This document shows, piece after piece, positions 28,526 to 39,205 of a DNA stretch of 64,000 bases. A program made the translations under genes and the position numbers. The stretch is taken from the NCBI RefSeq assembly GCF_988242995.1, contig NZ_OZ547043.1. One strand, given 5' to 3'. The notes under the pieces were generated by a model. That model worked only from the letters and a program-made list of their open reading frames with translations. It made no database searches and was not told the origin of the DNA. Each line of letters opens with the position of its first letter. Position 1 is the first letter of the stretch.

Positions 28526-28760
28526 CTAGGATAAGCGAAACGTGGAATAAAAGGAATGATTGTCCAGTCAAAGAAGACAATTATCTGACTTACGTCACGT
28601 TTTCAGCCCCGCCCCTGTGGAATTTATTCCACTTTGCAGAATCACGAATAAGCGTAGCAAAATCTTTTCGTTGTGCCGTCACAAACCCTGACTTATATCA
28701 GAATATGACTGATGCAGCGTCGATATTATCCGCAATACGTCCGAGTTTCGGAGTACTCCA

Positions 28761-29192
28761 ATGATGACATTGCCCTACCCATATTCTTCCTCCGCACGTT
28801 TTTACGCGCTGCGCCTGCTCCCCGGGCAGGAAGTTCTCTCCCAATTACGCGCCTTCGCGCAGCAACAACAACTTCACGCCGCGTGGATTGCAGGTTGTAC
28901 CGGCAGTCTGACTGACGTCGCCTTACGCTATGCCGGGCAAGAAAACACTGCCCTGCTAAGCGGTAAGTTCGAAGTCATCGCATTGAACGGCACGCTGGAA
29001 CAGAGTGGTGAACATCTTCATCTCTGCGTTTCCGATCCACACGGCACGATGCTTGGCGGTCATATGATGCCCGGCTGTACCGTGCGGACCACGCTTGAAC
29101 TGGTGATCGGCTGCCTTGAGGAACTGGCGTTTAGCCGCCAGCCTTGCGCGCTTTCTGGTTACGACGAGTTGCATATTTCCCCCGTTAACTAA
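28761..29192 (+). CDS. PPC/DUF296 domain protein, 143 aa, first gene of the ECF operon
   Basis: GGAG 8-11 nt upstream of the ATG; ...HLHLCVSDPHGTMLGGHMMPGCTVRTTLELVI resembles the PPC (PF03479-type) fold. Confidence 0.65.
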   Translation: MMTLPYPYSSSARFYALRLLPGQEVLSQLRAFAQQQQLHAAWIAGCTGSLTDVALRYAGQENTALLSGKFEVIALNGTLEQSGEHLHLCVSDPHGTMLGGHMMPGCTVRTTLELVIGCLEELAFSRQPCALSGYDELHISPVN

Positions 29193-29214
29193 CTATTTTC
29201 AGAGAGGTTTTCTT

Positions 29215-29793
29215 ATGGCGCGTCGCCACTTTTCCAGTCAGGCGCTGGTGTTAATCGTTATATCTATCGCCATCAATATGATCGGCGGGCAACTGGCCAG
29301 CATGGTCAAATTACCTATATTTCTCGACTCCGTCGGCACACTTATTAGCGCGGTACTGCTTGGTCCGGTGATCGGGATGCTGACCGGCTTACTGACCAAT
29401 TTACTCTGGGGATTGCTGACCGACCCGATCGCCGCCGCATTTGCGCCCGTCGCGATGGTCATCGGCCTGGTCACCGGTTGGCTGGCGCGAGCGGGTTGGT
29501 TCCGCACCCTGCCAAAAGTCGTTGTTAGCGGCGTGATTATTACGCTTGCGGTAACGGTCGTCGCTGTACCGCTGCGTACTGCGCTGTTCGGCGGCGTGAC
29601 AGGAAGCGGAGCCGATTTGTTCGTTGCCTGGATGCACTCGATGGGGCAAAACCTGGTGGAGTCGGTGGCGATTACGGTGATAGGCGCGAACCTGGTCGAT
29701 AAAATTCTCACAGCGGTGATTGTCTGGCTTTTACTGCGTCAGCTGCCGATTCGCACCACGCGCCATTTCCCGGCAATGGCTGCCGTGCGCTAA
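29215..29793 (+). CDS. ECF transporter substrate-capture (S) component, 192 aa, substrate unknown
   Basis: AGAGAGG Shine-Dalgarno before the ATG; small polytopic protein with LPIFLDSVGTLISAVLLGPVIGMLTGLL, the loop motif typical of S components. Confidence 0.65.
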   Translation: MARRHFSSQALVLIVISIAINMIGGQLASMVKLPIFLDSVGTLISAVLLGPVIGMLTGLLTNLLWGLLTDPIAAAFAPVAMVIGLVTGWLARAGWFRTLPKVVVSGVIITLAVTVVAVPLRTALFGGVTGSGADLFVAWMHSMGQNLVESVAITVIGANLVDKILTAVIVWLLLRQLPIRTTRHFPAMAAVR

Positions 29794-30501
29794 ATGCATC
29801 CGTTTACATCCTTAACGCTGTGGGCGCTGGCGGCCTGCACCACGCTTATCCTGCCCACACAGACAATATTGCCAGTCTATAGCGCGGCGACCTTTTTCTG
29901 CCTTATTGCGCTAAAGGCCACGCGGCGGCGGGCAAAATATGTCGTCTGGCTGATGTTCTCGCTGGGGGCTGGACTGTGGTTGGTACACGGTGGCTGGCTG
30001 ACAGAATGGCTAAGCGGCACGCCACGCTCGCCAGAACGGTGGACGCATGCTATTACGCTCTGGTTGCGGATTCTGGCGATTGTTTCAACCTCGCAGTTGT
30101 GGATGCAGTACGTCCCAGTGCAACGTTTTATCCGCGCTTTGTTTGCTTCTCACCTGCCGCCGGGCGTCGCTTATCTGTTCGCCGGGCCGTTGTTGGTCGT
30201 TGAGCAGTTAAAACGGCAATTAGCGATTATTCATGAAGCGCAGCGCGCCCGCGGCGTGCCGCTGGATGAGGGCTGGTATCAGCGTTTACGTGCTATGCCC
30301 GCGCTAATTATTCCGCTAACACACAATGCGCTAAACGATCTGGCTATCCGTGGTGCGGCGCTGGATATGCGGGCATTTCGAATCAACAATAGGCGCACTA
30401 CGTTATGGGCACCAGCCGATAGCACCCTACAACGCGTAGCACGTTACACCATGATCTTGCTGATGCTGGCAGAATTCGGAGCGTGGATATGGTTACGTTA
30501 G
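29794..30501 (+). CDS. ECF transporter transmembrane (T) component, EcfT/CbiQ family, 235 aa
   Basis: ATG directly abuts the S-component stop (TAAATG); polytopic; ARG and IRG coupling-helix motifs. Confidence 0.65.
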   Translation: MHPFTSLTLWALAACTTLILPTQTILPVYSAATFFCLIALKATRRRAKYVVWLMFSLGAGLWLVHGGWLTEWLSGTPRSPERWTHAITLWLRILAIVSTSQLWMQYVPVQRFIRALFASHLPPGVAYLFAGPLLVVEQLKRQLAIIHEAQRARGVPLDEGWYQRLRAMPALIIPLTHNALNDLAIRGAALDMRAFRINNRRTTLWAPADSTLQRVARYTMILLMLAEFGAWIWLR

Positions 30502-31166
30502 AACAGTTCCGCTATTGCCCGACACACTCAACGCATCCTCCGTTCTGTTATGACTTTCACTATGTCAAACCGGGGATGGTCGCCATCTTTGGTGACAACG
30601 GCAGTGGCAAAAGTACGCTGGCGCAGCTGATGGCGGGCTGGTATCCGGACTTTCTACCAGGAGAGATAACCGGCACGGGGACGCTTCTCGGTACGCCCAT
30701 TGGGCGTCTCCCGCTTAATGAACAATCCGCCACCATCCAGCTCGTCCAGCAATCGCCCTATTTGCAGCTCTCCGGCTGTACCTTTAGCGTGGAAGAAGAA
30801 GTTGCCTTTGGGCCAGAAAATCTGTGTCTTGCTGAAAAAGAGATTATGGCGCGGATTGACGCCGCCCTGGCCCTGACCGAGTGCCAGCCGTTGCGCCATC
30901 GTCACCCGGCAACACTCTCCGGTGGAGAGACACAGCGCGTGGTCATCGCCTGCGCCATCGCGATGCAGCCAAAACTCTTAATTCTTGATGAAGCCTTTAG
31001 CCGCCTGACGCCGCAGGCCAGCGAAATGCTGTTGCAGCGCTTACAACACTGGGCGTCTGAACGTGGTTCGCTGATTATTCTTTTTGAACGTCATCGCACA
31101 CCTTTCCTGAACTACTGCCAGCAAGCGTGGCTATTGCAAAACGGAGCGCTCCAGCCACTATGTTAA
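30489..31166 (+). CDS. ECF transporter ATPase component A, ABC-type, about 225 aa
   Basis: Walker A GDNGSGKST, signature LSGGE, Walker B LLILDEA; start overlaps the T gene (a GTG at 30483 is an alternative start). Confidence 0.75.
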   Translation: MVTLEQFRYCPTHSTHPPFCYDFHYVKPGMVAIFGDNGSGKSTLAQLMAGWYPDFLPGEITGTGTLLGTPIGRLPLNEQSATIQLVQQSPYLQLSGCTFSVEEEVAFGPENLCLAEKEIMARIDAALALTECQPLRHRHPATLSGGETQRVVIACAIAMQPKLLILDEAFSRLTPQASEMLLQRLQHWASERGSLIILFERHRTPFLNYCQQAWLLQNGALQPLC

Positions 31167-31837
31167 CGTTAAATCAGATAACTTATCGCTGGCCTGGCGC
31201 GGCAACGGATTGTCTTTGCGACATTTCTCTGCAACTCAAACAAGGTGAATGGTTGGCGCTGACCGGCGACAATGGCGCGGGAAAATCGACGCTGTTACGA
31301 GTAATGGCAGGTCTTCTTACGCCCACAACCGGTACGGTTATGCTGCAACAACAGGCGATGAAAAACCTGAAAAACCGCCAACGTGCAGCAAAGATTGGCG
31401 TACTGTTTCAGGAAGCGGAAAACCAGCTTTTTCACAGCACCGTCGCCGACGAGATCGCATTTGGTTTGAAACTGCAAAAATGCCCGGCGGATGAAATCAC
31501 TCAACGTACCAATGCTGCCCTGCAATGCTGTCAGTTAGCAGACACTGCCAGCGCGCATCCGCTGGATCTGCATAGTGCGCAGCGACGGATGGTCGCCGTC
31601 GCCTGCCTGGAAGCACTCTCTCCGCCGCTATTGCTGCTGGACGAGCCGAGTCGGGATTTTGACGAAAATTGGTTGAGCGTGTTTGAACGCTGGCTGGAAA
31701 AGTGCCGCCAGCGAGGCACGAGCGTCGTAGCAATCAGTCATGACGCCGCATTTACCCGGCGTCATTTCTCTCGTGTGGTGCGACTGGAAGATGGTGTAAT
31801 CAGGAACGTTAATCCACCAGACGATATTCACCCGTAG
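31160..31837 (+). CDS. ECF transporter ATPase component A', ABC-type, 225 aa
   Basis: Walker A GDNGAGKST, Walker B LLLLDEP, H-loop SHD, signature degenerate (LHSAQ); ATG overlaps the component A stop (ATGTTAA). Confidence 0.75.
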   Translation: MLTLNQITYRWPGAATDCLCDISLQLKQGEWLALTGDNGAGKSTLLRVMAGLLTPTTGTVMLQQQAMKNLKNRQRAAKIGVLFQEAENQLFHSTVADEIAFGLKLQKCPADEITQRTNAALQCCQLADTASAHPLDLHSAQRRMVAVACLEALSPPLLLLDEPSRDFDENWLSVFERWLEKCRQRGTSVVAISHDAAFTRRHFSRVVRLEDGVIRNVNPPDDIHP

Positions 31838-32522
31838 CGGTCATCATTAAGGTCAAATTTGCAGGCAGACTCTCTTCCAGCACCCGGCGAACATTCGGCC
31901 CGTCGGTACGGTCATAAAAGTCTTCTGCGTCTGCCAGCGATAACCCTCCCGCCAGCTTTCGCCCCACCAGTCGTTCCCGCAACGCAGTAGCTGGCGCGTT
32001 GATAAAGATAGAGAAATCACAAAATTGCGCAAGCTGGCACCACTTCTCGTCGTCCAGCAACAACCAGTTTCCTTCGACGATGACGAGTGGTGCGGTAACG
32101 TGCAGCGCATCTTCAACAGGATCATGCTTTTGTCGATCGTACTGCGGCCACGTACAATCCCCTTCCACGACCTGGCGCAGATTTTCCGCCAGTTTCGCAA
32201 CGTCAAATGTCTCTGGTGCGCCTTTGAAGGGGCGCAATTGATGCGCATCCAGCCAGCTATTGTAATGGTGAAAACCATCCATCGGTAGCGTCTGAATAGC
32301 GGGCAGTTCCGGGTCTTGTTGCGCGATATATTCCCAGAAGGTGGTTAGGGTAGATTTACCCGTCCCCGGCGGAGCGCAAAGAAAAACCACCGTACGCCGC
32401 TGCGGATTTACCGTCTGTAAGGCCGCCAACATGTGCAGCAACGGTTTATGTACATTTTCAATCTCTTCGTTCTGGTACTGTGCCTGTATCTTCAGCCCAT
32501 TCACCGTTAATTCAATTTTCAC
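31809..32522 (-). CDS. yggC: P-loop nucleoside/pantothenate-kinase-like protein YggC, 237 aa
   Basis: Walker A APPGTGKST; matches YggC. Confidence 0.85.
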   Translation of the reverse strand: MKIELTVNGLKIQAQYQNEEIENVHKPLLHMLAALQTVNPQRRTVVFLCAPPGTGKSTLTTFWEYIAQQDPELPAIQTLPMDGFHHYNSWLDAHQLRPFKGAPETFDVAKLAENLRQVVEGDCTWPQYDRQKHDPVEDALHVTAPLVIVEGNWLLLDDEKWCQLAQFCDFSIFINAPATALRERLVGRKLAGGLSLADAEDFYDRTDGPNVRRVLEESLPANLTLMMTATGEYRLVD

Positions 32523-33028
32523 GGCGTTAATTCCTTTAAGGTGGTCGTTACTGCCAGCGTCAGCGCCGTTTTGACCATCCCGCTAAAACGCGCCTCTGAC
32601 CAGACGGCGAAATCGGCGAACTTCATCGCTTTCAATGCGTCATAGAGCGTCGCATTGCGGGTTATACTATTGACGTTGCTGATAAAATCCCAGGTCATGT
32701 CATCGGCAAATCCGGGCGTTTCATCCTGTTCGTTCAGGTAATGCCAGAACTGGGAAAAATGCGTGATATCGGCGTACAGCCATTTATCCATTTTCCCCAG
32801 CGCATAAATCAAACGCAGCGCAACATCAATATCGTCAAGCGGGCCGCTTTGGGCGAGTAACGGCTTCACTGCATATTCCACGATCTCTTCATCGTTATCG
32901 ACAAACAGCGACGGCAGAAACTGGCGTATCCCCTGGAGCAAAATGGTATGCGCAGTTTTCATAAATGAAAATAAATTGTCCTGTGCATCCAGTTGCTCAA
33001 GCACATCATCTTCTGTCAGCGTCGCCAT
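32519..33028 (-). CDS. yggD: YggD (MtlR-like / FumE family), 169 aa
   Basis: MATLTEDDVLEQLDAQDNLFSFMKTAHTILLQGIRQF... matches YggD. Confidence 0.85.
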   Translation of the reverse strand: MATLTEDDVLEQLDAQDNLFSFMKTAHTILLQGIRQFLPSLFVDNDEEIVEYAVKPLLAQSGPLDDIDVALRLIYALGKMDKWLYADITHFSQFWHYLNEQDETPGFADDMTWDFISNVNSITRNATLYDALKAMKFADFAVWSEARFSGMVKTALTLAVTTTLKELTP

Positions 33029-33049
33029 TGGTCTTCCGATAGATCACCA

Positions 33050-34015
33050 TCAATGCAGGGAGTCTATTATATTACACGTTTGGTCCGCGCCGCCGATCAG
33101 TAATGTCTGCGTCCGCACCCCATTCGCCGTCTGTTGGATACCGTTCACCAGCTCACCGCCCGTCACGCCCGTAGCGCTAAAGAGGATATCGTTCCCCCTC
33201 ACCAGTTCATCGAGCGAGTACACACGGTTAACGTCAACGCCCATTGCCTTGCAACGCTTGCGCTCCTGCTCTGCAATCTGCCGATTTTCCGTGTAATCCC
33301 CTTTAGCCTGACAAAAGTCAATCAGCTGGGCCTGCATATCCCCGCCTAATGCTTTAACGGCACAGGCAGAAATCACGCCTTCTGGCGCACCGCCGATGGT
33401 GTACATCACATCGTAAGGATTATCCTGCCAGCAGGTCAGCACGCTGGCGGCGACATCGCCATCCGGCAGAGCGAAAACCTTCACGCCCAGCTGTGTTGCT
33501 TCTTCAATCGCGGCACTCAGGCGCGGTTTATCCAGCGTAACCATGCGCAGCTTGTCCAGCGGTTTGCCTAACGCTTTCGCCACGTTGCGCAGGTTGTCCA
33601 CCAGGGGCAAAGACAGATCAATCGCGCCCGCCGCCAGCCGATTAACAACCAGTTTTTTCATATACATATCGGGAGCGTGTAGCAGGCTGCCTCGTGGGGC
33701 GAAGGCCATGACTGCCAGCGCATTGCTCTGTCCCATCGCCACCATCCGCGTACCTTCAATGGGATCAACCGCGATATCGACTTCTGGCCCATCGCCTTTG
33801 CCCACCTCTTCGCCAATCCACAGCATCGGCGCATGGTCAATCTCTCCCTCGCCGATAACCACTCGCCCACGAAAAGCGACGTCGTTTAATGCCTGGCGCA
33901 TCGCGGTGACCGCCAGGCCATCAATTTTATTTTTGTCGCCACATCCGGTTTGCGGCCAGGCAGCCAACGCTGCCTGTTCCGTAACGCGAAATAATGGCCA
34001 CGCCAGGGACATCAT
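33050..34015 (-). CDS. yggF: Fructose-1,6-bisphosphatase class II (GlpX paralog), 321 aa
   Basis: MMSLAWPLFRVTEQAALAAWPQTGCGDKNKIDGLAV... GlpX family. Confidence 0.9.
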   Translation of the reverse strand: MMSLAWPLFRVTEQAALAAWPQTGCGDKNKIDGLAVTAMRQALNDVAFRGRVVIGEGEIDHAPMLWIGEEVGKGDGPEVDIAVDPIEGTRMVAMGQSNALAVMAFAPRGSLLHAPDMYMKKLVVNRLAAGAIDLSLPLVDNLRNVAKALGKPLDKLRMVTLDKPRLSAAIEEATQLGVKVFALPDGDVAASVLTCWQDNPYDVMYTIGGAPEGVISACAVKALGGDMQAQLIDFCQAKGDYTENRQIAEQERKRCKAMGVDVNRVYSLDELVRGNDILFSATGVTGGELVNGIQQTANGVRTQTLLIGGADQTCNIIDSLH

Positions 34016-35289
34016 TGCGCGGCCTCCCCAATATCAACGCCAAATTGCGCCAGCAGATATTTCTCGGCCTGCTCATTCCAGATGCCGTGCGTTTCCTCAA
34101 CCAGCCGCGCCAGCTCTTTAAACAGCGGATCGGTTTTGCCTTTTTCGGCAAAATCGGCAATGGCAGTGAGCGGCATGGTCACGCCGTTATAAATGAGTTT
34201 TTTACCGCCTGGGATATCCGGCAGATTGAGCACGGTTTCTGGCACCGCATCCAGGCCACCAATATGGGTCACCATAAACGACGGCTGTAACTGTCCCGTA
34301 GCGCTAAGGGTAATCGCCTCTTTCATGTCGTCCGTTGAACCGCCGGATGTACCGACGACGTGCGTGCTGTTGTAATGGACGTTGTAGAAATTAAACGGCA
34401 CTTTGAAGTTTTTATCCGTCGGCCCGGCAAAGAAGTTCAGGCAGCCATCTTCCGCCAGTAATTCGTCAGCCATCTCAACGACAGCAGGCACCGCCGCATA
34501 AACAAAAATGTCATCGAACCCGGCATCTCCTGTAAGCGCCCGCAGCATCTGTACCGGATCGCTCATCCCTTTGGTATTCACATACACCAGCTCAATGCCT
34601 TTACTGGCCGCCAGCTCCACCGGCAGCAGCTTCTGTACCTGCGCCAGGCGTTTGTCGTCGATATCGACCACCACCACCCGCGACGGTTGTATGCCGCCGT
34701 TAATGGCGTAATCGATAGCGCCAATGCCCATTGGGCCAGCACACGCCAGCAGTGCAATATTGCCGCCAGGTTTAACGCCCATGCGATGCTCATAAACATA
34801 TTGCGTGGTGTGATAATTGGCATGATAAGCGCCAATAATGCAGCACATAGGCTCTGCCAGCGACGCCGCAGCAAAATAAGAGCCGTGATAGGGTAATACG
34901 CAGCCCAAATTAATGGCGATTTCGGGAATAATCATATAGGTGGCGTTACCGCCAAAATATTCGTAGCTGTAGCCCGCTGAATATCCGCTTGGTAACCCCA
35001 TCGCCGGTTGCAATACAAAACGCTGGCCTTTTTTATATTTGCCAGTGAGATTTTTACCCACTTCGACAATAACCCCGGCACATTCATGCCCGGTAATGAC
35101 CGGATGATTTTCTAAATCGTCGGGTACGCGTTTATGTTCACTACCGAGTAACGCCGCTTTCCAGGTGGATAAACAGACGCTGTCAGAAATTACACTCACC
35201 AGCAGTTCATTATCGGTAATTTCTGGCAGTTCAAATTCGCGCAGACGGACATCCCGCTTGCCATAAATAGCAGCAACTTTGGTTTTCAT
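34012..35289 (-). CDS. yggP: Zinc-dependent sugar-phosphate/polyol dehydrogenase (MDR family), 425 aa, intact
   Basis: GHECAG zinc-binding motif; matches YggP; overlaps the yggF start by 4 nt. Confidence 0.85.
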   Translation of the reverse strand: MKTKVAAIYGKRDVRLREFELPEITDNELLVSVISDSVCLSTWKAALLGSEHKRVPDDLENHPVITGHECAGVIVEVGKNLTGKYKKGQRFVLQPAMGLPSGYSAGYSYEYFGGNATYMIIPEIAINLGCVLPYHGSYFAAASLAEPMCCIIGAYHANYHTTQYVYEHRMGVKPGGNIALLACAGPMGIGAIDYAINGGIQPSRVVVVDIDDKRLAQVQKLLPVELAASKGIELVYVNTKGMSDPVQMLRALTGDAGFDDIFVYAAVPAVVEMADELLAEDGCLNFFAGPTDKNFKVPFNFYNVHYNSTHVVGTSGGSTDDMKEAITLSATGQLQPSFMVTHIGGLDAVPETVLNLPDIPGGKKLIYNGVTMPLTAIADFAEKGKTDPLFKELARLVEETHGIWNEQAEKYLLAQFGVDIGEAAQ

Positions 35290-35303
35290 TTTTACCTCTG
35301 TAA

Positions 35304-36692
35304 TCAGTGTTTATGTTCTGCGGTTAATTGATTAAATAAAGTGTCGAGTTTTGGATCGCCAATATAGTTATTAATCAATATCAGTGATTTATCCGTCACA
35401 CGTTTCACGCGCCCTTCCAGACTGGCATGAGTAACAACGATATCCGCATCCGCAGGCACGTTTTCTATCGCGTAATGTTTTACTTCAATTGCCAGCCCCG
35501 CTTTTTCCAGACGTTTACGGAAGGTGGTTGCGCCCATCGCGCTGGAGCCCATCCCCGCATCGCAAACAAAAGCGATACGCTTAACCCGGCTTAACGAGAA
35601 TGCACCCTCTTGTTTCATCGCCTTAACCGCATTGGCTGACTGAGCAAACTCATCTTCGTTCTCCGTTTCCACCGTTTTTTCCATCTTCAGTATCAGCGAA
35701 GTGATAGCAAAGGACACCAGGGTACCTACCGTAACACCAGCAATTGTCGCCAGGAATGAGCCTTTCGGCGTCAGCGCCAGGTAAGCAAAGATAGACCCCG
35801 GACTTGGGCCAGCCACCAGACCACCGTCCAGTAAGTTAAACATCCAGGTGCCAGACATACCGCCCGCAATCATGGCAATAATGGTCAGCGGCTTCATCAG
35901 CACATATGGGAAATACAGTTCGTGGATACCGCCGAGGAAGTGAATAATCATCGCCCCGGGCGCAGAACGTTTACTCATCCCTTTACCAAACAAGGTAAAC
36001 GCCAGCAGCAGCCCTAATCCAGGCCCAGGATTGGACGCCACCATAAAGAAGATAGATTTACCGTTAACCGAAGCCTGTTGCATTCCCAGCGGATAATAGA
36101 CGCCCTGATCGATCGCATTATTGAGGAAAAGCACTTTCGCCGGTTCATTGATGACTGACAGCAGAGGCAGATAACCCGCATGTACCAGCGCCTCGATACA
36201 CTCTTTGACGAAAGTATTGGCAATTAACACCGCCGGGCCGATAACTTCAAAACCCAGCAGACAAAGGAGCATCCCCGCGATACCTAATGAGAAGTTATTG
36301 ATAACCATCTCAAAACCGGCAGGTATGCGTTTTTCCAGCGCCTTGTCGATATATTTAATCACCAGACCACCGAGCGGCCCCATAATCATCGAGCCAAGGA
36401 ACATCGGGATTTCAGCGCCGACGATCACACCAATCGTACCAATTCCGCCCATGACCGCGCCGCGTTTGCCGCCGATCAGATGACCACCAGTAGAACCAAT
36501 CATCACGGGTAATAAATAGGTAATCATCGGACCGACAATTTTGGCGAAATGTTCATTCGGCAGCCAACCGGTGGGAATAAATAACGCAGTTATAAAGCCC
36601 CAGGCAATAAAAGCACCGATATTGGGGATGACCATTGCCGTCAAAAAACCCCCAAAAGCCTGGACCTTTGCACGAGCAGACTTGTTTTCCAT
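35304..36692 (-). CDS. cmtA: PTS mannitol-family EIICB component, 462 aa
   Basis: MENKSARAKVQAFGGFLTAMVIPNIGAFIAWGF... matches CmtA. Confidence 0.9.
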   Translation of the reverse strand: MENKSARAKVQAFGGFLTAMVIPNIGAFIAWGFITALFIPTGWLPNEHFAKIVGPMITYLLPVMIGSTGGHLIGGKRGAVMGGIGTIGVIVGAEIPMFLGSMIMGPLGGLVIKYIDKALEKRIPAGFEMVINNFSLGIAGMLLCLLGFEVIGPAVLIANTFVKECIEALVHAGYLPLLSVINEPAKVLFLNNAIDQGVYYPLGMQQASVNGKSIFFMVASNPGPGLGLLLAFTLFGKGMSKRSAPGAMIIHFLGGIHELYFPYVLMKPLTIIAMIAGGMSGTWMFNLLDGGLVAGPSPGSIFAYLALTPKGSFLATIAGVTVGTLVSFAITSLILKMEKTVETENEDEFAQSANAVKAMKQEGAFSLSRVKRIAFVCDAGMGSSAMGATTFRKRLEKAGLAIEVKHYAIENVPADADIVVTHASLEGRVKRVTDKSLILINNYIGDPKLDTLFNQLTAEHKH

Positions 36693-36719
36693 AATATTAT
36701 CCTGTAGAGGAGAGAGTCA

Positions 36720-37163
36720 TTATCCGCGGCTGATAATGTCCGCTAATTGTTTTTCTGATGATGCTGTTAAGAGTTGTTCGAGTATTTCTTCTTCGCTCAG
36801 TAATTCACTTAACGCCTGAATAGCGCCAATGTGCGAATCGGCATCGGCAGCAGAAAGGCCGATGAGTAATTTTATCGGTTCGTCATTCCCCGGAAAATAA
36901 ACGCCTTGTTTAAGTAACGTTAAAGACATCCCGGTTTTAAGCGCCCCACATTCCGGTCGAGCATGAGGCATTGCCACGCCTGGTGCGAGAATATAGTAAG
37001 GGCCATTACTCATGGTGGAATATTTAATAGCCTGAATGTAATTCTCGCTGATATAGTTTTTATCCAGCAATGATGCCATCGAGAAATCGATAGCTTCCTG
37101 CCAATCTTTTGCTGAATGTATAACTGAGATTGATGATTCTGGAAAATAATCAATAAGCCGCAT
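36720..37163 (-). CDS. cmtB: PTS mannitol-family EIIA component, 147 aa
   Basis: MRLIDYFPESSISVIHSAKDWQEAIDFSMASLL... matches CmtB. Confidence 0.9.
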   Translation of the reverse strand: MRLIDYFPESSISVIHSAKDWQEAIDFSMASLLDKNYISENYIQAIKYSTMSNGPYYILAPGVAMPHARPECGALKTGMSLTLLKQGVYFPGNDEPIKLLIGLSAADADSHIGAIQALSELLSEEEILEQLLTASSEKQLADIISRG

Positions 37164-37540
37164 AAATTATCCTTATTTTATTTTTAGGGTACCGTCCGGC
37201 GGTAAAAATAAAATACTCGTGCGGTTTAATGAAAGCAATTGGGTACGCGAGAAGAAAAACCCCATGAGCCAAAATAATAAAACTTTAAATAACAACAACA
37301 TGAAATCAATAATTACAAAGTCAACTTTGTATTTGTTATGTTTATCACAAAATCAACATTTTGTTTGTTATTGTATTTTTGATGCATATCGCCATTTATT
37401 TATTGAATGTCCGAAAACATACTTTTTTTAATGCAATGTTTTTTCGCTATACCCCTTTATAGATTCTGAATTCTCACCTGTCGGCTATTTTCTCCTCACC
37501 TCATGTGACATATTCCCCACTTTACTCAAGGAAGATTCAT

Positions 37541-38449
37541 ATGAAAGCACCTGTTTCAATAACCTCATTTCGCCCACAAAAATCTATTGCTATCGTCATT
37601 GGCGTGCTTGCCGTGGTTGTGCTGCCATTTCTCTCGTATTACACCGTTAATGAAGGTGAACGCGGCATTTTGCTGCGCTACGGAAAAATCGTAAAAGTTG
37701 CCGAGCCGGGTCTGGGTTTTAAAATCCCTTTTATGGAAAGCGTGGAGAAAATTTCCACGCGTAATCAGGCTGTGGTTTATCAGGGATTACAGGCCTACAG
37801 CCGCGACCAGCAACCGGCACAAATGACAGTATCAGTCAGCTTCCACATTAAACCTTCAGAAGCTGGCGCAGTTTATACAACCTACAACACCATTGAATCT
37901 TTAAAAGAGCGTCTGATCGTCCGCCAGCTGCCAACCCAACTGGAGAACGTTTTCGGGCAATATACAGCCATCAGCGCGGTACAGGATCGTACAAAACTGG
38001 TTCAGGATCTGCAAAATGCAATGCGTAAAGCCGTTGTTGGCCCGGTGGTGATTGATGGTGTTCAGATTGAAAATATTGATTTTTCTGACGCTTATGAAAA
38101 ATCGATTGAAGATCGAATGAAAGCAGAAGTCGCCATTGCCACACGTAAGCAAAATCTGGAAACAGAGAAAATCCAGGCGCAAATAGCGGTAACTCAGGCC
38201 CAGGCAGAAGCAGACAGTAAACTGGCGGCAGCCAAAGCAGAAGCTGAGACTATTCGCGTAAGAGGCGCGGCAGAGGCTGAAACTATTCGTTTAAAAAGTG
38301 CGGCTGAAGCAGAAGCGATCCGCCTGCGCGGTGAAGCTCTGCGGGATAATCCCGGACTTGTTGCCCTCACCACTGCTGAGCGTTGGGACGGTAAGCTACC
38401 CGATACCATGATCCCCGGCAGTACAGTTCCGTTTATCTCTACTAAGTAA
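37541..38449 (+). CDS. SPFH/band-7 (prohibitin/HflC-like) membrane protein with an Ala/Glu-rich repeat tail, 302 aa
   Basis: AAGGAAG Shine-Dalgarno before the ATG; N-terminal TM helix; SPFH core (YTVNEGERGILLRYGK...); C-terminal AEAETIR-type repeats. Confidence 0.7.
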   Translation: MKAPVSITSFRPQKSIAIVIGVLAVVVLPFLSYYTVNEGERGILLRYGKIVKVAEPGLGFKIPFMESVEKISTRNQAVVYQGLQAYSRDQQPAQMTVSVSFHIKPSEAGAVYTTYNTIESLKERLIVRQLPTQLENVFGQYTAISAVQDRTKLVQDLQNAMRKAVVGPVVIDGVQIENIDFSDAYEKSIEDRMKAEVAIATRKQNLETEKIQAQIAVTQAQAEADSKLAAAKAEAETIRVRGAAEAETIRLKSAAEAEAIRLRGEALRDNPGLVALTTAERWDGKLPDTMIPGSTVPFISTK

Positions 38450-39155
38450 TAAATATCCTCCGGCATAGCCGGAGGTTTTTCAAATGCGCCTATAAGGCTC
38501 TCTTACCAGCCGCGCCCTAACAGGCGCACACGATCTGACATTTGCATCCAACTTCGTTACTTACGGCCCGTAAACGGGCTGCCCGGATAGGGAATCGATA
38601 ACTGCTCTCCCATTTTATCCTCTTCAAGCTGGTGCTTTATGTAATCCTGTATCTTCGCCGTGTTCTTACCCACTGTATCGACGTAGTACCCTCTGCACCA
38701 GAACTCCCTGTTCCTGTATTTGAATTTCAAATCACCAAACTGCTCGTAAAGCATCAGACTGCTTTTCCCTTTCAGATATCCCATAAACCCGGATACGCTC
38801 ATTTTGGGCGGGATCTCCACAAGCATATGGATATGATCTGCACAGCATTCAGCTTCCAGAATCCGTACGCTTTTCCACTCACACAGCTTTCTCAAAATAC
38901 TGCCTATTGCTCTACGCTTCTCTCTGTAGAACACCTGTCTTCGGTATTTTGGCGCAAAAACTATGTGATATTTACAGTTCCATCGGGTGTGCGCTAAGCT
39001 CTTTTCGTTCCCCATTGGGACCCCCTTTTGATTTCTTGTTTGACACTTGCAGTTGCCAGACCGCAAGGTGTTTTAACAAATCAAAAGGGGTTTTAATAAC
39101 TGGCTCAAAGCTGAAAGCTTTCCGGAACCCCCAGCCTAGCTGGGGGTTTTCTGTG
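38450..39155 (-). mobile_element. IS200 insertion sequence (IS200/IS605 family), about 0.7 kb, boundaries approximate
   Basis: Complete Y1/HUH transposase gene; GC-rich subterminal hairpins at both ends (cccccagcctagctggggg 39128-39146 and cctccggcatagccggagg 38456-38474). Confidence 0.6.
38557..39015 (-). CDS. tnpA: IS200 transposase TnpA (Y1 HUH transposase), 152 aa
   Basis: MGNEKSLAHTRWNCKYHIVFAPKYRRQVFY...HIHMLVEIPP... matches IS200 TnpA. Confidence 0.9.
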   Translation of the reverse strand: MGNEKSLAHTRWNCKYHIVFAPKYRRQVFYREKRRAIGSILRKLCEWKSVRILEAECCADHIHMLVEIPPKMSVSGFMGYLKGKSSLMLYEQFGDLKFKYRNREFWCRGYYVDTVGKNTAKIQDYIKHQLEEDKMGEQLSIPYPGSPFTGRK

Positions 39156-39158
39156 CAC

Positions 39159-39183
39159 AAAAAAAGGGCCGCTTTCGCGGCCC
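39159..39183 (-). terminator. Intrinsic terminator downstream of tktA
   Basis: gggccgcgaaagcggccc hairpin followed by a 7-T run on the minus strand. Confidence 0.75.
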
Positions 39184-39205
39184 TTCTCACAAAGCATCTT
39201 ACCGA

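What the first reader, a model, noticed from the sequence alone, without database searches (positions are those of the whole stretch)
31809..31837. Convergent 29-nt overlap of ECF ATPase A' and yggC 3' ends
The last codons of the plus-strand A' gene overlap the last codons of minus-strand yggC, leaving no room for a terminator between them. The two transcripts must read into each other, which could give antisense interference, and suggests a compact insertion or deletion junction.
Basis: seen in the sequence. Interest (0 to 1): 0.3.

Follow-up and report, generated by a model that had tools for sequence, protein, structure and literature searches.

The report
Ordinary, ancient tail-to-tail gene overlap
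The last 29 bases of an ECF-transporter ATPase gene and of the oppositely oriented kinase gene yggC really do overlap, but this is an ordinary, long-annotated gene overlap inherited across several enterobacterial genera, not a recent rearrangement scar.

Summary
The plus-strand EcfA' gene (31160-31837, stop TAG) and minus-strand yggC (32522-31809, stop TAA) share 31809-31837, 29 nt. RefSeq annotates the same overlap. The junction is present in 3320 of 5426 complete E. coli genomes.

The overlap is old. In all 18 other genomes examined that carry both genes (Escherichia, Salmonella, Citrobacter, Silvania, Superficieibacter, Phytobacter and an unnamed enterobacterial MAG) the two genes overlap by 11-92 nt, always in the same relative frame.

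Where the cmt-yggP-glpX-fumE-yggC module is absent (Klebsiella, Kluyvera, Leclercia, Atlantibacter, some Citrobacter), A' usually ends within 3-10 residues after its conserved core. It is usually followed by a canonical bidirectional terminator and convergent tktA. In the window that terminator sits beside tktA (39167-39184).

The overlap pairs a predicted disordered A' tail with a predicted structured, conserved YggC C-terminus.

No intrinsic terminator lies near the junction. I infer that each operon ends inside the other gene, by Rho or polymerase collision. This is not shown.

About 39% of E. coli (K-12, BL21) lack the ECF operon and carry a strongly diverged yggC 3' end.

Convergent overlaps are a known class, with 75 pairs in K-12. 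Interest is low.

The parts
31809..31837 (.). The 29-nt convergent overlap. It holds A' codons 217-225 plus the A' stop, and the last 8 yggC codons plus the yggC stop. Codon positions face each other as 1:1, 2:3 and 3:2.
   Evidence: The phase was worked out from the coordinates. The A' stop TAG is the reverse complement of yggC codons gCT-Acg (Ala-Thr).
31160..31837 (+). EcfA' ATPase, the last gene of the ECF operon (225 aa from the PGAP start). The conserved core ends near G212. Residues 220-225 are predicted disordered.
   Evidence: AF2 mean pLDDT 89; residues 220-225 below 50.
31809..32522 (-). yggC, a PanK/Udk-like P-loop kinase of 237 aa and the last gene of the minus-strand module. Its C-terminus is predicted to form a beta-hairpin (strands 223-227 and 233-235). 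G231 and Y233 are nearly invariant.
   Evidence: AF2 mean pLDDT 94.5; last block 85.
28761..29192 (+). PPC/PCC-domain protein, the first gene of the plus-strand cluster.
   Evidence: PF03479, 96 bits.
29215..29793 (+). ECF transporter S (substrate-binding) component.
   Evidence: PF12822, 33.6 bits; CD3073-family model, 136 bits, below its cutoff of 180.
29794..30501 (+). ECF T (transmembrane) component.
   Evidence: CbiQ, 23.7 bits, just below the cutoff of 25; PGAP name.
30489..31166 (+). EcfA ATPase. It overlaps T by 13 nt and A' by 7 nt, both co-directional, which is typical of operons.
32519..37163 (-). The rest of the minus-strand module: fumE/yggD (32519-33028), glpX-type FBPase/yggF (33050-34015), yggP (34012-35289), cmtA (35304-36692) and cmtB (36720-37163).
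31898..31995 (+). C-rich, G-poor tract in the untranslated RNA 61-158 nt after the A' stop, antisense to yggC. It is a candidate Rho loading site.
   Evidence: C/G 1.8-2.1; 19-20 YC dinucleotides; top 1-4% of antisense-of-coding windows. It is not specific, because K-type yggC has a comparable tract.
31631..31728 (-). C-rich, G-poor tract in the untranslated RNA 81-178 nt after the yggC stop, antisense to A'. It is a candidate Rho loading site.
   Evidence: C/G 1.9-2.1.
31740..31765 (.). Perfect 9-bp inverted repeat with an 8-nt loop inside A' (codons HDA...RRH), 44 nt downstream of the yggC stop. It may act as a pause site or a 3'-end-protecting stem for the yggC transcript. This is unproven.
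39167..39184 (-). The tktA terminator stem (gggccgc tttc gcggccc, followed by a T-run on the minus strand). It is the counterpart of the bidirectional terminator that directly follows A' in most genomes lacking the yggC module.
28635..31808 (.). The segment missing from K-12-type Escherichia: the ECF operon and its upstream region, about 3.17 kb. The right-hand breakpoint abuts the yggC stop.

Best explanation
This is an ordinary, evolutionarily old tail-to-tail gene overlap at the seam between two gene modules.

Module 1 is the PPC-S-T-A-A' ECF transporter operon, which lies next to epd in most Enterobacteriaceae sampled. Module 2 is the minus-strand cmtBA-yggP-glpX-fumE-yggC cluster. Module 2 sits between A' and the terminator that A' otherwise shares with convergent tktA.

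At the seam there is no non-coding DNA. The conserved cores of the two proteins lie only 25-70 nt apart. Each reading frame runs on to the first stop it meets inside the other gene.

In Escherichia the unstructured, non-conserved A' tail (NVNPPDDIHP) is a passenger read from the antisense of yggC's conserved and structured C-terminal codons (TGEYRLVD).

Because no intrinsic terminator is available, I infer that each operon's transcript runs past its stop into the antisense of the other gene. I infer that it is ended there by Rho acting on the now untranslated, C-rich RNA, or by head-on polymerase collision when both operons are active. The mRNA 3' ends would then overlap by more than 29 nt.

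Shown here: the anatomy, the gene identities, the conservation, the reading phase and the absence of a terminator. Inferred: the mode of termination, any antisense effect, and the direction of the ancient rearrangement (insertion of module 2 versus repeated loss).
For: Overlap and annotation.

All 18 other genomes that carry both genes overlap, by 11, 26, 29, 32, 41, 44, 68 or 92 nt. Every value is 2 mod 3. The spacing between the conserved cores is 25, 37, 49 or 70 nt, so the differences are all multiples of 3.

In most genomes without yggC at this locus, A' ends 3-10 residues after RLxxG. It is followed by a terminator of the form aaaaaaacgggccgc....gcgacccgtttt and then by convergent tktA. 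The tktA terminator is retained at 39167-39184 in the window.

The A' tail varies in length and sequence across genera and is predicted disordered. YggC G231 and Y233 are nearly invariant, including in homologues with no overlapping partner. The YggC tail is predicted to be a beta-hairpin.

No terminator-like site lies near the junction, there is no Rfam hit, and the overlap has no unusually stable fold.

C>G tracts follow both stops.

Convergent overlaps are a recognised class: 75 pairs in K-12 (PMC4161906), and they make up 7% of overlaps, some of them real and long (PMC2478687).
Against: There are no transcript data, so the termination mode and read-through are inference only.

The C-rich tracts are not specific to overlapping alleles. 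K-type yggC, which has no convergent partner, has one too.

The direction of the ancient event is not resolved. Both states occur within Citrobacter and within Silvania, so repeated gain, loss or horizontal exchange is needed either way.

Genomes were sampled at one per species and selected through A', so yggC loci lacking the ECF operon outside Escherichia were not surveyed.
Confidence: 0.78

Rival explanations
1. The terminator-less overlap is a selected regulatory device. Convergent transcription and 3' antisense pairing make expression of the ECF uptake operon and the cmt-yggC operon mutually exclusive, through transcriptional interference or RNase III cleavage of the duplex.
For: The overlap persists in every genome that has both genes. 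Only in-frame indels have accumulated between the cores. No terminator has been regained. Related mechanisms are documented for other convergent E. coli pairs (and the arfA/mscL paper listed).
Against: Overlap length and stop positions drift freely from 11 to 92 nt. Each module exists and is conserved without the other: the ECF operon without yggC in most of the roughly 28 A'-bearing loci that lack yggC, and yggC without the ECF operon in K-12-type E. coli, E. fergusonii and some E. albertii. Persistence is equally explained by inheritance and the lack of any pressure to open a spacer. There are no expression data.
Confidence: 0.1
2. The overlap is the fresh scar of a recent insertion of the ECF 'island' next to yggC, or of a recent deletion, in this E. 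coli lineage.
For: The ECF operon is present in 3317 and absent from about 2100 complete E. coli genomes. The breakpoint of the absent form abuts the yggC stop. The E. coli W genome paper lists the cluster as strain-variable (PMC3032704).
Against: The same operon sits beside epd in most Enterobacteriaceae sampled and overlaps yggC in the same phase in six named genera and one unnamed MAG. The island-type yggC 3' part diverges from Citrobacter and Salmonella about as much as the 5' part does, which fits vertical descent. The ECF-less allele is the aberrant one, at 56-65% identity to everything.
Confidence: 0.03
3. Termination is not by Rho. It is by collision-driven bidirectional termination of the type described by Ju et al. 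2019, using the hairpin at 31740-31765 as the pausing element.
For: The pair is convergent. A perfect 9-bp stem lies 44 nt past the yggC stop. The stem keeps 9 of 9 pairs in Escherichia, Salmonella and one Citrobacter, with one two-sided change in S. diarizonae, and 8 of 9 in the other yggC-bearing Citrobacter. The mechanism is described in 10.1101/2022.10.23.513370.
Against: The stem lies inside A', 70 nt before the A' stop, so ending plus-strand transcripts there would truncate the A' mRNA. It encodes the strongly conserved HDAAFT(R/Q)RHF motif, which by itself explains most of its conservation. The overlap itself has no stable fold (z +1.1 and -0.1).
Confidence: 0.08
4. The overlap is an annotation or sequencing artefact, such as a frameshifted A' 3' end or a mis-called stop.
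For: 3'-end extensions account for many of the long (>60 nt) convergent overlaps in databases (PMC2478687).
Against: Both stops are the first in-frame stops. The identical arrangement occurs in 3320 independently sequenced genomes. The overlap persists across genera with different stops.
Confidence: 0.01

Closest known systems
Conserved convergent (tail-to-tail) overlapping gene pairs of prokaryotes. From memory: Rogozin et al. 2002, Trends Genet. Read here: Palleja et al. 2008 (PMC2478687) and Huvet & Stumpf 2014 (PMC4161906).
   Same: Two bona fide genes overlap at their 3' ends by more than 15 nt, and the overlap is conserved in several species. It was created and reshaped by movement of stop codons. 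The phase, with codon position 2 of one gene facing position 3 of the other, is the one I recall as most common for such pairs (Rogozin's '123:132'; called 'phase 1' in 10.1101/2025.11.07.687268). The overlap involves a non-conserved protein tail.
   Different: Nothing essential differs. The particular points here are that the overlap sits at a module seam where a shared terminator was displaced, and that its length ranges from 11 to 92 nt among genera while the phase stays fixed.
Overlapping bidirectional terminators between convergent E. coli genes (Ju et al. 2019, as described in 10.1101/2022.10.23.513370), for example ynaJ-uspE.
   Same: Convergent operons whose transcripts are expected to overlap at their 3' ends, with no dedicated canonical terminator for each gene.
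   Different: Those sites lie in intergenic DNA and need an RNA stem-loop in the overlapping region. Here the region is coding on both strands and shows no stable fold. No 3'-end data exist for this locus.
The bidirectional intrinsic terminator shared by A' and tktA in Klebsiella, Kluyvera, Leclercia, Atlantibacter and some Citrobacter.
   Same: It lies at the same genomic position relative to A', directly after the orthologous stop codon.
   Different: In the window it is not next to A'. Its counterpart lies 7.3 kb away beside tktA (39167-39184), and its plus-strand T-run is degraded to ttctc.
The 'cobalt transport system cbiQ-O2 in the region epd-yggC' noted as strain-variable in E. coli W (PMC3032704).
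   Same: It is the same gene cluster and the same presence/absence polymorphism relative to K-12 and B.
   Different: That paper does not mention the overlap. The 'cobalt' label is not supported here: I found no CbiM or CbiN, the S component matches only the generic ECF_trnsprt family, and the substrate is unknown.

Membership tests
Conserved convergent overlapping gene pair | Both reading frames are genuine protein-coding genes. | tested here: met
   A' matches ABC_tran at 95.7 bits and the ECF ATPase models, and has orthologues in many genera. YggC matches NF006742 at 520 bits over its full length.
Conserved convergent overlapping gene pair | The 3' ends overlap on opposite strands by more than a few bases (more than 15 nt in Rogozin's set). 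| tested here: met
   29 nt, 31809-31837.
Conserved convergent overlapping gene pair | [quoted passage not shown] | tested here: met
   18 other genomes, from six named genera and one unnamed MAG, all overlapping.
Intrinsic (Rho-independent) terminator at the junction | A G+C-rich hairpin followed by a T-run within or just after the gene ends. | tested here: not met
   No such site near 31700-31950 on either strand. A pattern search for the orthologous terminator found no match in the window.
Collision-type overlapping bidirectional terminator (Ju et al. 2019) | A stem-loop-forming sequence in the region where the convergent transcripts overlap. | tested here: inconclusive
   The overlap itself has no stable fold (z +1.1 and -0.1). 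A 9-bp stem exists 44 nt away inside A'.
Collision-type overlapping bidirectional terminator (Ju et al. 2019) | Mapped, coincident RNA 3' ends from both strands that are independent of Rho. | not testable with these tools
   This needs SEnd-seq or Term-seq, with and without bicyclomycin.
Rho-dependent terminator | An untranslated, C-rich and G-poor stretch of about 80 nt downstream of the stop codon (a rut-like site). | tested here: inconclusive
   C/G of 1.8-2.1 after both stops, in the top 2-4% of antisense-of-coding windows. Similar tracts occur in K-type yggC, which has no partner gene.
Rho-dependent terminator | Read-through when Rho is inhibited. | not testable with these tools
   This needs an experiment.
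Dedicated (group I) ECF transporter operon | Genes for S, T and two ATPase components in one co-directional cluster. | tested here: met
   The S component matches PF12822 above its cutoff. The T component matches CbiQ at 23.7 bits against a cutoff of 25 and carries the PGAP name. A and A' match ABC_tran. Both ATPases are short, at 225 aa, and match only positions up to about 231 of the 279-position ECF ATPase model.
Recently acquired genomic island | Restricted to a sub-lineage and absent from the same locus in sister genera. | tested here: not met
   The cluster lies beside epd in more than 30 species of Enterobacteriaceae.

The most novel reading that the evidence does not exclude
The terminator-less overlap, kept in the same phase for the whole history of the Escherichia-Salmonella-Citrobacter group, may be maintained by selection as a mutual-exclusion switch between an ECF uptake operon of unknown substrate and the cmt/yggP-yggC sugar or polyol operon. 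On this reading, the ECF-less allele with its diverged yggC 3' end, shared by E. coli, E. fergusonii and E. albertii, would be a long-lived balanced polymorphism that removes that coupling.
Probability: 0.06. Interest if true: 0.4.

Novelty: already known. Interest (0 to 1): 0.12.

Why it matters
It matters little in itself. Convergent overlaps of a few tens of bases are a recognised, minor feature of bacterial genomes, and this one is already present in the RefSeq annotation of thousands of E. coli genomes.

Its modest value is as a clean worked example of three things. First, a module seam can strip an operon of its terminator. Second, two reading frames can share DNA when one partner's tail is disordered and the other's is structured. 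Third, stop codons and in-frame indels can reshape an overlap (11-92 nt) without changing its phase.

For anyone doing transcriptomics on island-bearing strains (O157:H7, Nissle, ST131, E. coli W), it predicts antisense read-through between the two operons. That read-through should not be mistaken for a regulatory sRNA.

Tried and rejected
1. Intrinsic terminator or known RNA element at the junction. The consensus scan, the pattern search for the orthologous terminator and Rfam at E<=1 all found nothing.

2. Stable structure in the overlap. Folding both strands gave z-scores of +1.1 and -0.1.

3. The C-rich tracts as evidence of selection for Rho termination. Rejected as specific evidence, because K-type yggC without a convergent partner has an equally C-rich antisense tract.

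4. Origin of the K-12-type yggC 3' end. A search with the 79-aa C-terminal fragment returned only E. coli fragments. The full-length search showed that the type is shared with E. fergusonii and some E. albertii, but found no closer donor outside Escherichia. The origin remains open.

5. Short-repeat signature of the deletion that made the ECF-less allele. The alignment shows homology fading about 40 nt before the yggC stop, with no clear direct repeats.

6. Literature on expression or function of this ECF cluster or of yggC. I found only a strain-variability note and an untested 'sugar/polyol kinase' prediction.

7. An artefact or mis-called stop. Rejected.

Full report
**Observation.**
The window around the finding is the E. 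coli epd-tktA region. The plus-strand ORF ending at 31837 (stop TAG, 31835-31837) is the second ATPase (A') of an ECF transporter. The minus-strand ORF 32522-31809 (stop TAA, read as tta at 31809-31811) is yggC. They share 31809-31837, 29 nt.

RefSeq/PGAP annotates the same two CDSs with the same overlap in the 100%-identical strain H1827/12 and in O157:H7. A 106-nt probe across the junction is found at >=95% identity in 3320 of 5426 complete E. coli genomes. Large protein clusters have the matching lengths: A' 225 aa and YggC 237 aa.

**What the genes are.**
Upstream of A' on the plus strand lie four genes in a tight co-directional cluster with 13-nt and 7-nt operon-style overlaps:
- a PPC-domain protein;
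- an ECF S component;
- a T component;
- a first ATPase.

yggC encodes a PanK/Udk-like P-loop kinase (NF006742, 520 bits). Its closest solved relative is 3C8U, 'fructokinase'. It is the last gene of the minus-strand run cmtB-cmtA-yggP-glpX(yggF)-fumE(yggD)-yggC.

**Comparison within E. coli.**
The ECF cluster is present in 3317 complete genomes and absent from about 2100, including BL21 and K-12-type strains. The E. coli W genome paper had already listed it as a strain-variable 'cobalt transport system cbiQ-O2 in the region epd-yggC' (PMC3032704).

K-type YggC has the same length, 237 aa. Residues 1-160 are 98.8% identical to the window's protein, but the last 77 residues are only 61% identical. 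At the DNA level identity falls to 79% over a gapped alignment and then becomes unalignable near the stop.

The missing segment corresponds to window positions about 28635-31808, so its right-hand edge abuts the yggC stop.

The K-type C-terminus (...EMTEEGRYHFTS) and the identical 284-nt yggC-epd spacing also occur in E. fergusonii and in some E. albertii. Other E. albertii carry the island type. The dimorphism therefore spans species. The K-type 3' part is 56-65% identical to every other YggC examined, so it is the aberrant allele.

**Comparison across genera.**
A scan of one genome per species with an A' profile gave about 47 enterobacterial loci. The PPC-S-T-A-A' cluster lies beside epd in the following:
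- Escherichia, Salmonella, Citrobacter and Klebsiella;
- Kluyvera, Silvania and Superficieibacter;
- Atlantibacter, Pseudescherichia and Phytobacter;
- Enterobacter species and others.

In every one of the 18 other genomes that also carry yggC-fumE-glpX downstream, A' and yggC overlap:

| Overlap | Genome(s) |
|---|---|
| 11 nt | Phytobacter |
| 26 nt | Silvania confinis |
| 29 nt | Escherichia species |
| 32 nt | Salmonella |
| 41 nt | Superficieibacter |
| 44 nt | six Citrobacter |
| 68 nt | C. koseri |
| 92 nt | a MAG |

All these values are 2 mod 3. The distance between the conserved A' 'RL' codons and the conserved yggC 'Y' codon is 25, 37, 49 or 70 nt, so the differences are all multiples of three.

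In most genomes that lack the yggC module at this locus, A' stops 3-10 residues after its conserved RLxxG. It is followed within about 5-30 nt by a canonical A-tract/hairpin/T-tract terminator and then by convergent tktA. This holds for Klebsiella, Kluyvera, Leclercia, Atlantibacter, Buttiauxella and several Citrobacter. A few loci instead have other neighbours or no obvious terminator (Enterobacter species, Providencia, Morganella and others).

In the window, the counterpart of that terminator lies next to tktA at 39167-39184. The cmt-yggC module therefore lies between A' and the terminator that A' otherwise uses. The overlap is the seam of that ancient arrangement, not a recent scar.

**Which partner is constrained.**
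The A' tail beyond G212 varies in length and sequence among genera. Its apparent 'DIHP/DIRP' motif is simply the antisense image of yggC's GEYR codons (read from the sequences). AlphaFold gives pLDDT below 50 for residues 220-225, in an otherwise confident model with mean pLDDT 89.

YggC G231 and Y233 are nearly invariant, including in homologues that have no overlapping partner. The tail is modelled as a beta-hairpin, with strands 223-227 and 233-235, in a model of mean pLDDT 94.5.

The codon phase is 1:1, 2:3, 3:2. From memory, this is Rogozin's '123:132', the commonest phase among conserved convergent overlaps. A recent preprint says that 'phase 1' accounts for nearly half of convergent overlaps once 4-nt overlaps are excluded; I infer that its phase 1 is this pairing.

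**How transcription probably ends (inference).**
No hairpin-plus-T-run site lies near the junction. There is no Rfam match and no stable fold in the overlap. After each stop, the RNA is untranslated antisense of the other gene.

C>G tracts lie 61-158 nt after the A' stop (31898-31995) and 81-178 nt after the yggC stop (31631-31728). Their C/G ratios of 1.8-2.1 fall in the top 2-4% of antisense-of-coding windows. This is compatible with Rho loading. However, comparable tracts occur in K-type yggC, so the composition permits Rho termination rather than demonstrating it.

Collision-driven termination is the alternative (Ju et al. 2019, as described in 10.1101/2022.10.23.513370). A perfect 9-bp hairpin at 31740-31765 could act as a pause site or a 3'-protecting element for the yggC transcript. 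But it encodes the conserved HDAAFTRRHF motif, so its conservation is ambiguous.

In either case, the mRNA 3' ends should overlap by more than 29 nt whenever both operons are active.

**Comparison with what is known, and verdict.**
Convergent overlaps are a recognised class:
- 75 pairs in the K-12 reference (PMC4161906);
- about 7% of well-characterised overlaps, and the only orientation in which long overlaps appear real (PMC2478687).

This locus meets every defining feature of a conserved convergent overlap. It does not meet the features of an intrinsic terminator or of a recent island.

Its 'no terminator' point is right. Its 'antisense interference' idea is untested. Its 'insertion/deletion junction' reading is right only in the sense of an ancient module seam.

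Interest is low. The feature is already visible in public annotation and belongs to a known kind.

Noticed in passing
window 31809-32050 (yggC 3' third), compared with L002 1875-2120, L069 and L071: Escherichia has two deeply diverged alleles of the yggC 3' end. The last 77 aa are 61% identical between them, against 98.8% for the first 160 aa. The K-12 type always goes with absence of the ECF operon and a 284-nt yggC-epd spacer. It is shared by E. coli, E. fergusonii and some E. albertii. It is 56-65% identical to every other YggC examined, so its source is unknown.
   Followed up: partly
window 31740-31765: A perfect 9-bp inverted repeat (ATGACGCCG / CGGCGTCAT, 8-nt loop) inside A', 44 nt downstream of the yggC stop. 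All 9 pairs are kept in Escherichia, Salmonella (including one two-sided change, GCTG/CAGC) and one Citrobacter. It keeps 8 of 9 in the other yggC-bearing Citrobacter and 3-8 elsewhere. It overlies the conserved HDAAFTRRHF motif, so the signal is ambiguous.
   Followed up: partly
window 32050-32522 (yggC 5' part): The 5' two-thirds of the window strain's yggC is K-12-like (98.8% aa identity). Other island-type strains (O157:H7, E. albertii) are 92.5% identical there. The window's gene therefore looks like a recombinant between the two haplotypes, with the crossover near codon 160.
   Followed up: no
window 37505-39066: Between cmtB and tktA lie a plus-strand SPFH/prohibitin-family gene (37505-38449) and an IS200C-type transposase gene (38557-39066, minus strand). 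The full arrangement with the IS occurs in only 21 of 5426 complete E. coli genomes. The prohibitin gene alone is found in more.
   Followed up: partly
window 39123-39190: Two terminator-like hairpins lie downstream of tktA. The first is cccccagc-cta-gctggggg followed by ttttct on the plus strand. The second is the tktA terminator gggccgc-tttc-gcggccc, whose plus-strand T-run is degraded to ttctc compared with the bidirectional version in genera where A' uses it.
   Followed up: no
window 30489-31837 (EcfA and EcfA'): Both ATPases are only 225 aa. They match the ECF ATPase models only up to about position 231 of 279, so they lack the usual C-terminal extension of ECF ATPases. More distant orthologues (Phytobacter, Atlantibacter) keep a canonical G-x-I-x-x-D-G-x-P-x-x-L ending that Escherichia has lost.
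   Followed up: partly
window 28761-31837: The cluster is called a 'cobalt transport system' in the E. coli W paper. I found no CbiM or CbiN. The S component matches only the generic ECF_trnsprt family, plus a sub-threshold hit to the CD3073 family, and the first gene encodes a PPC/DUF296 protein. The substrate is unknown. The cluster is divergently placed next to epd across Enterobacteriaceae.
   Followed up: no
P0020 compared with L034, L036 and L037 (Atlantibacter): An Atlantibacter hermannii A' protein from the protein database (74% identical, tail ...DIHPSLSSPA) has a tail that mirrors yggC's GEYR codons, which implies an overlap there too. The Atlantibacter loci fetched carry a different A' (61% identical) followed by a terminator and tktA. 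There may be two cluster types or strain variation in that genus.
   Followed up: no
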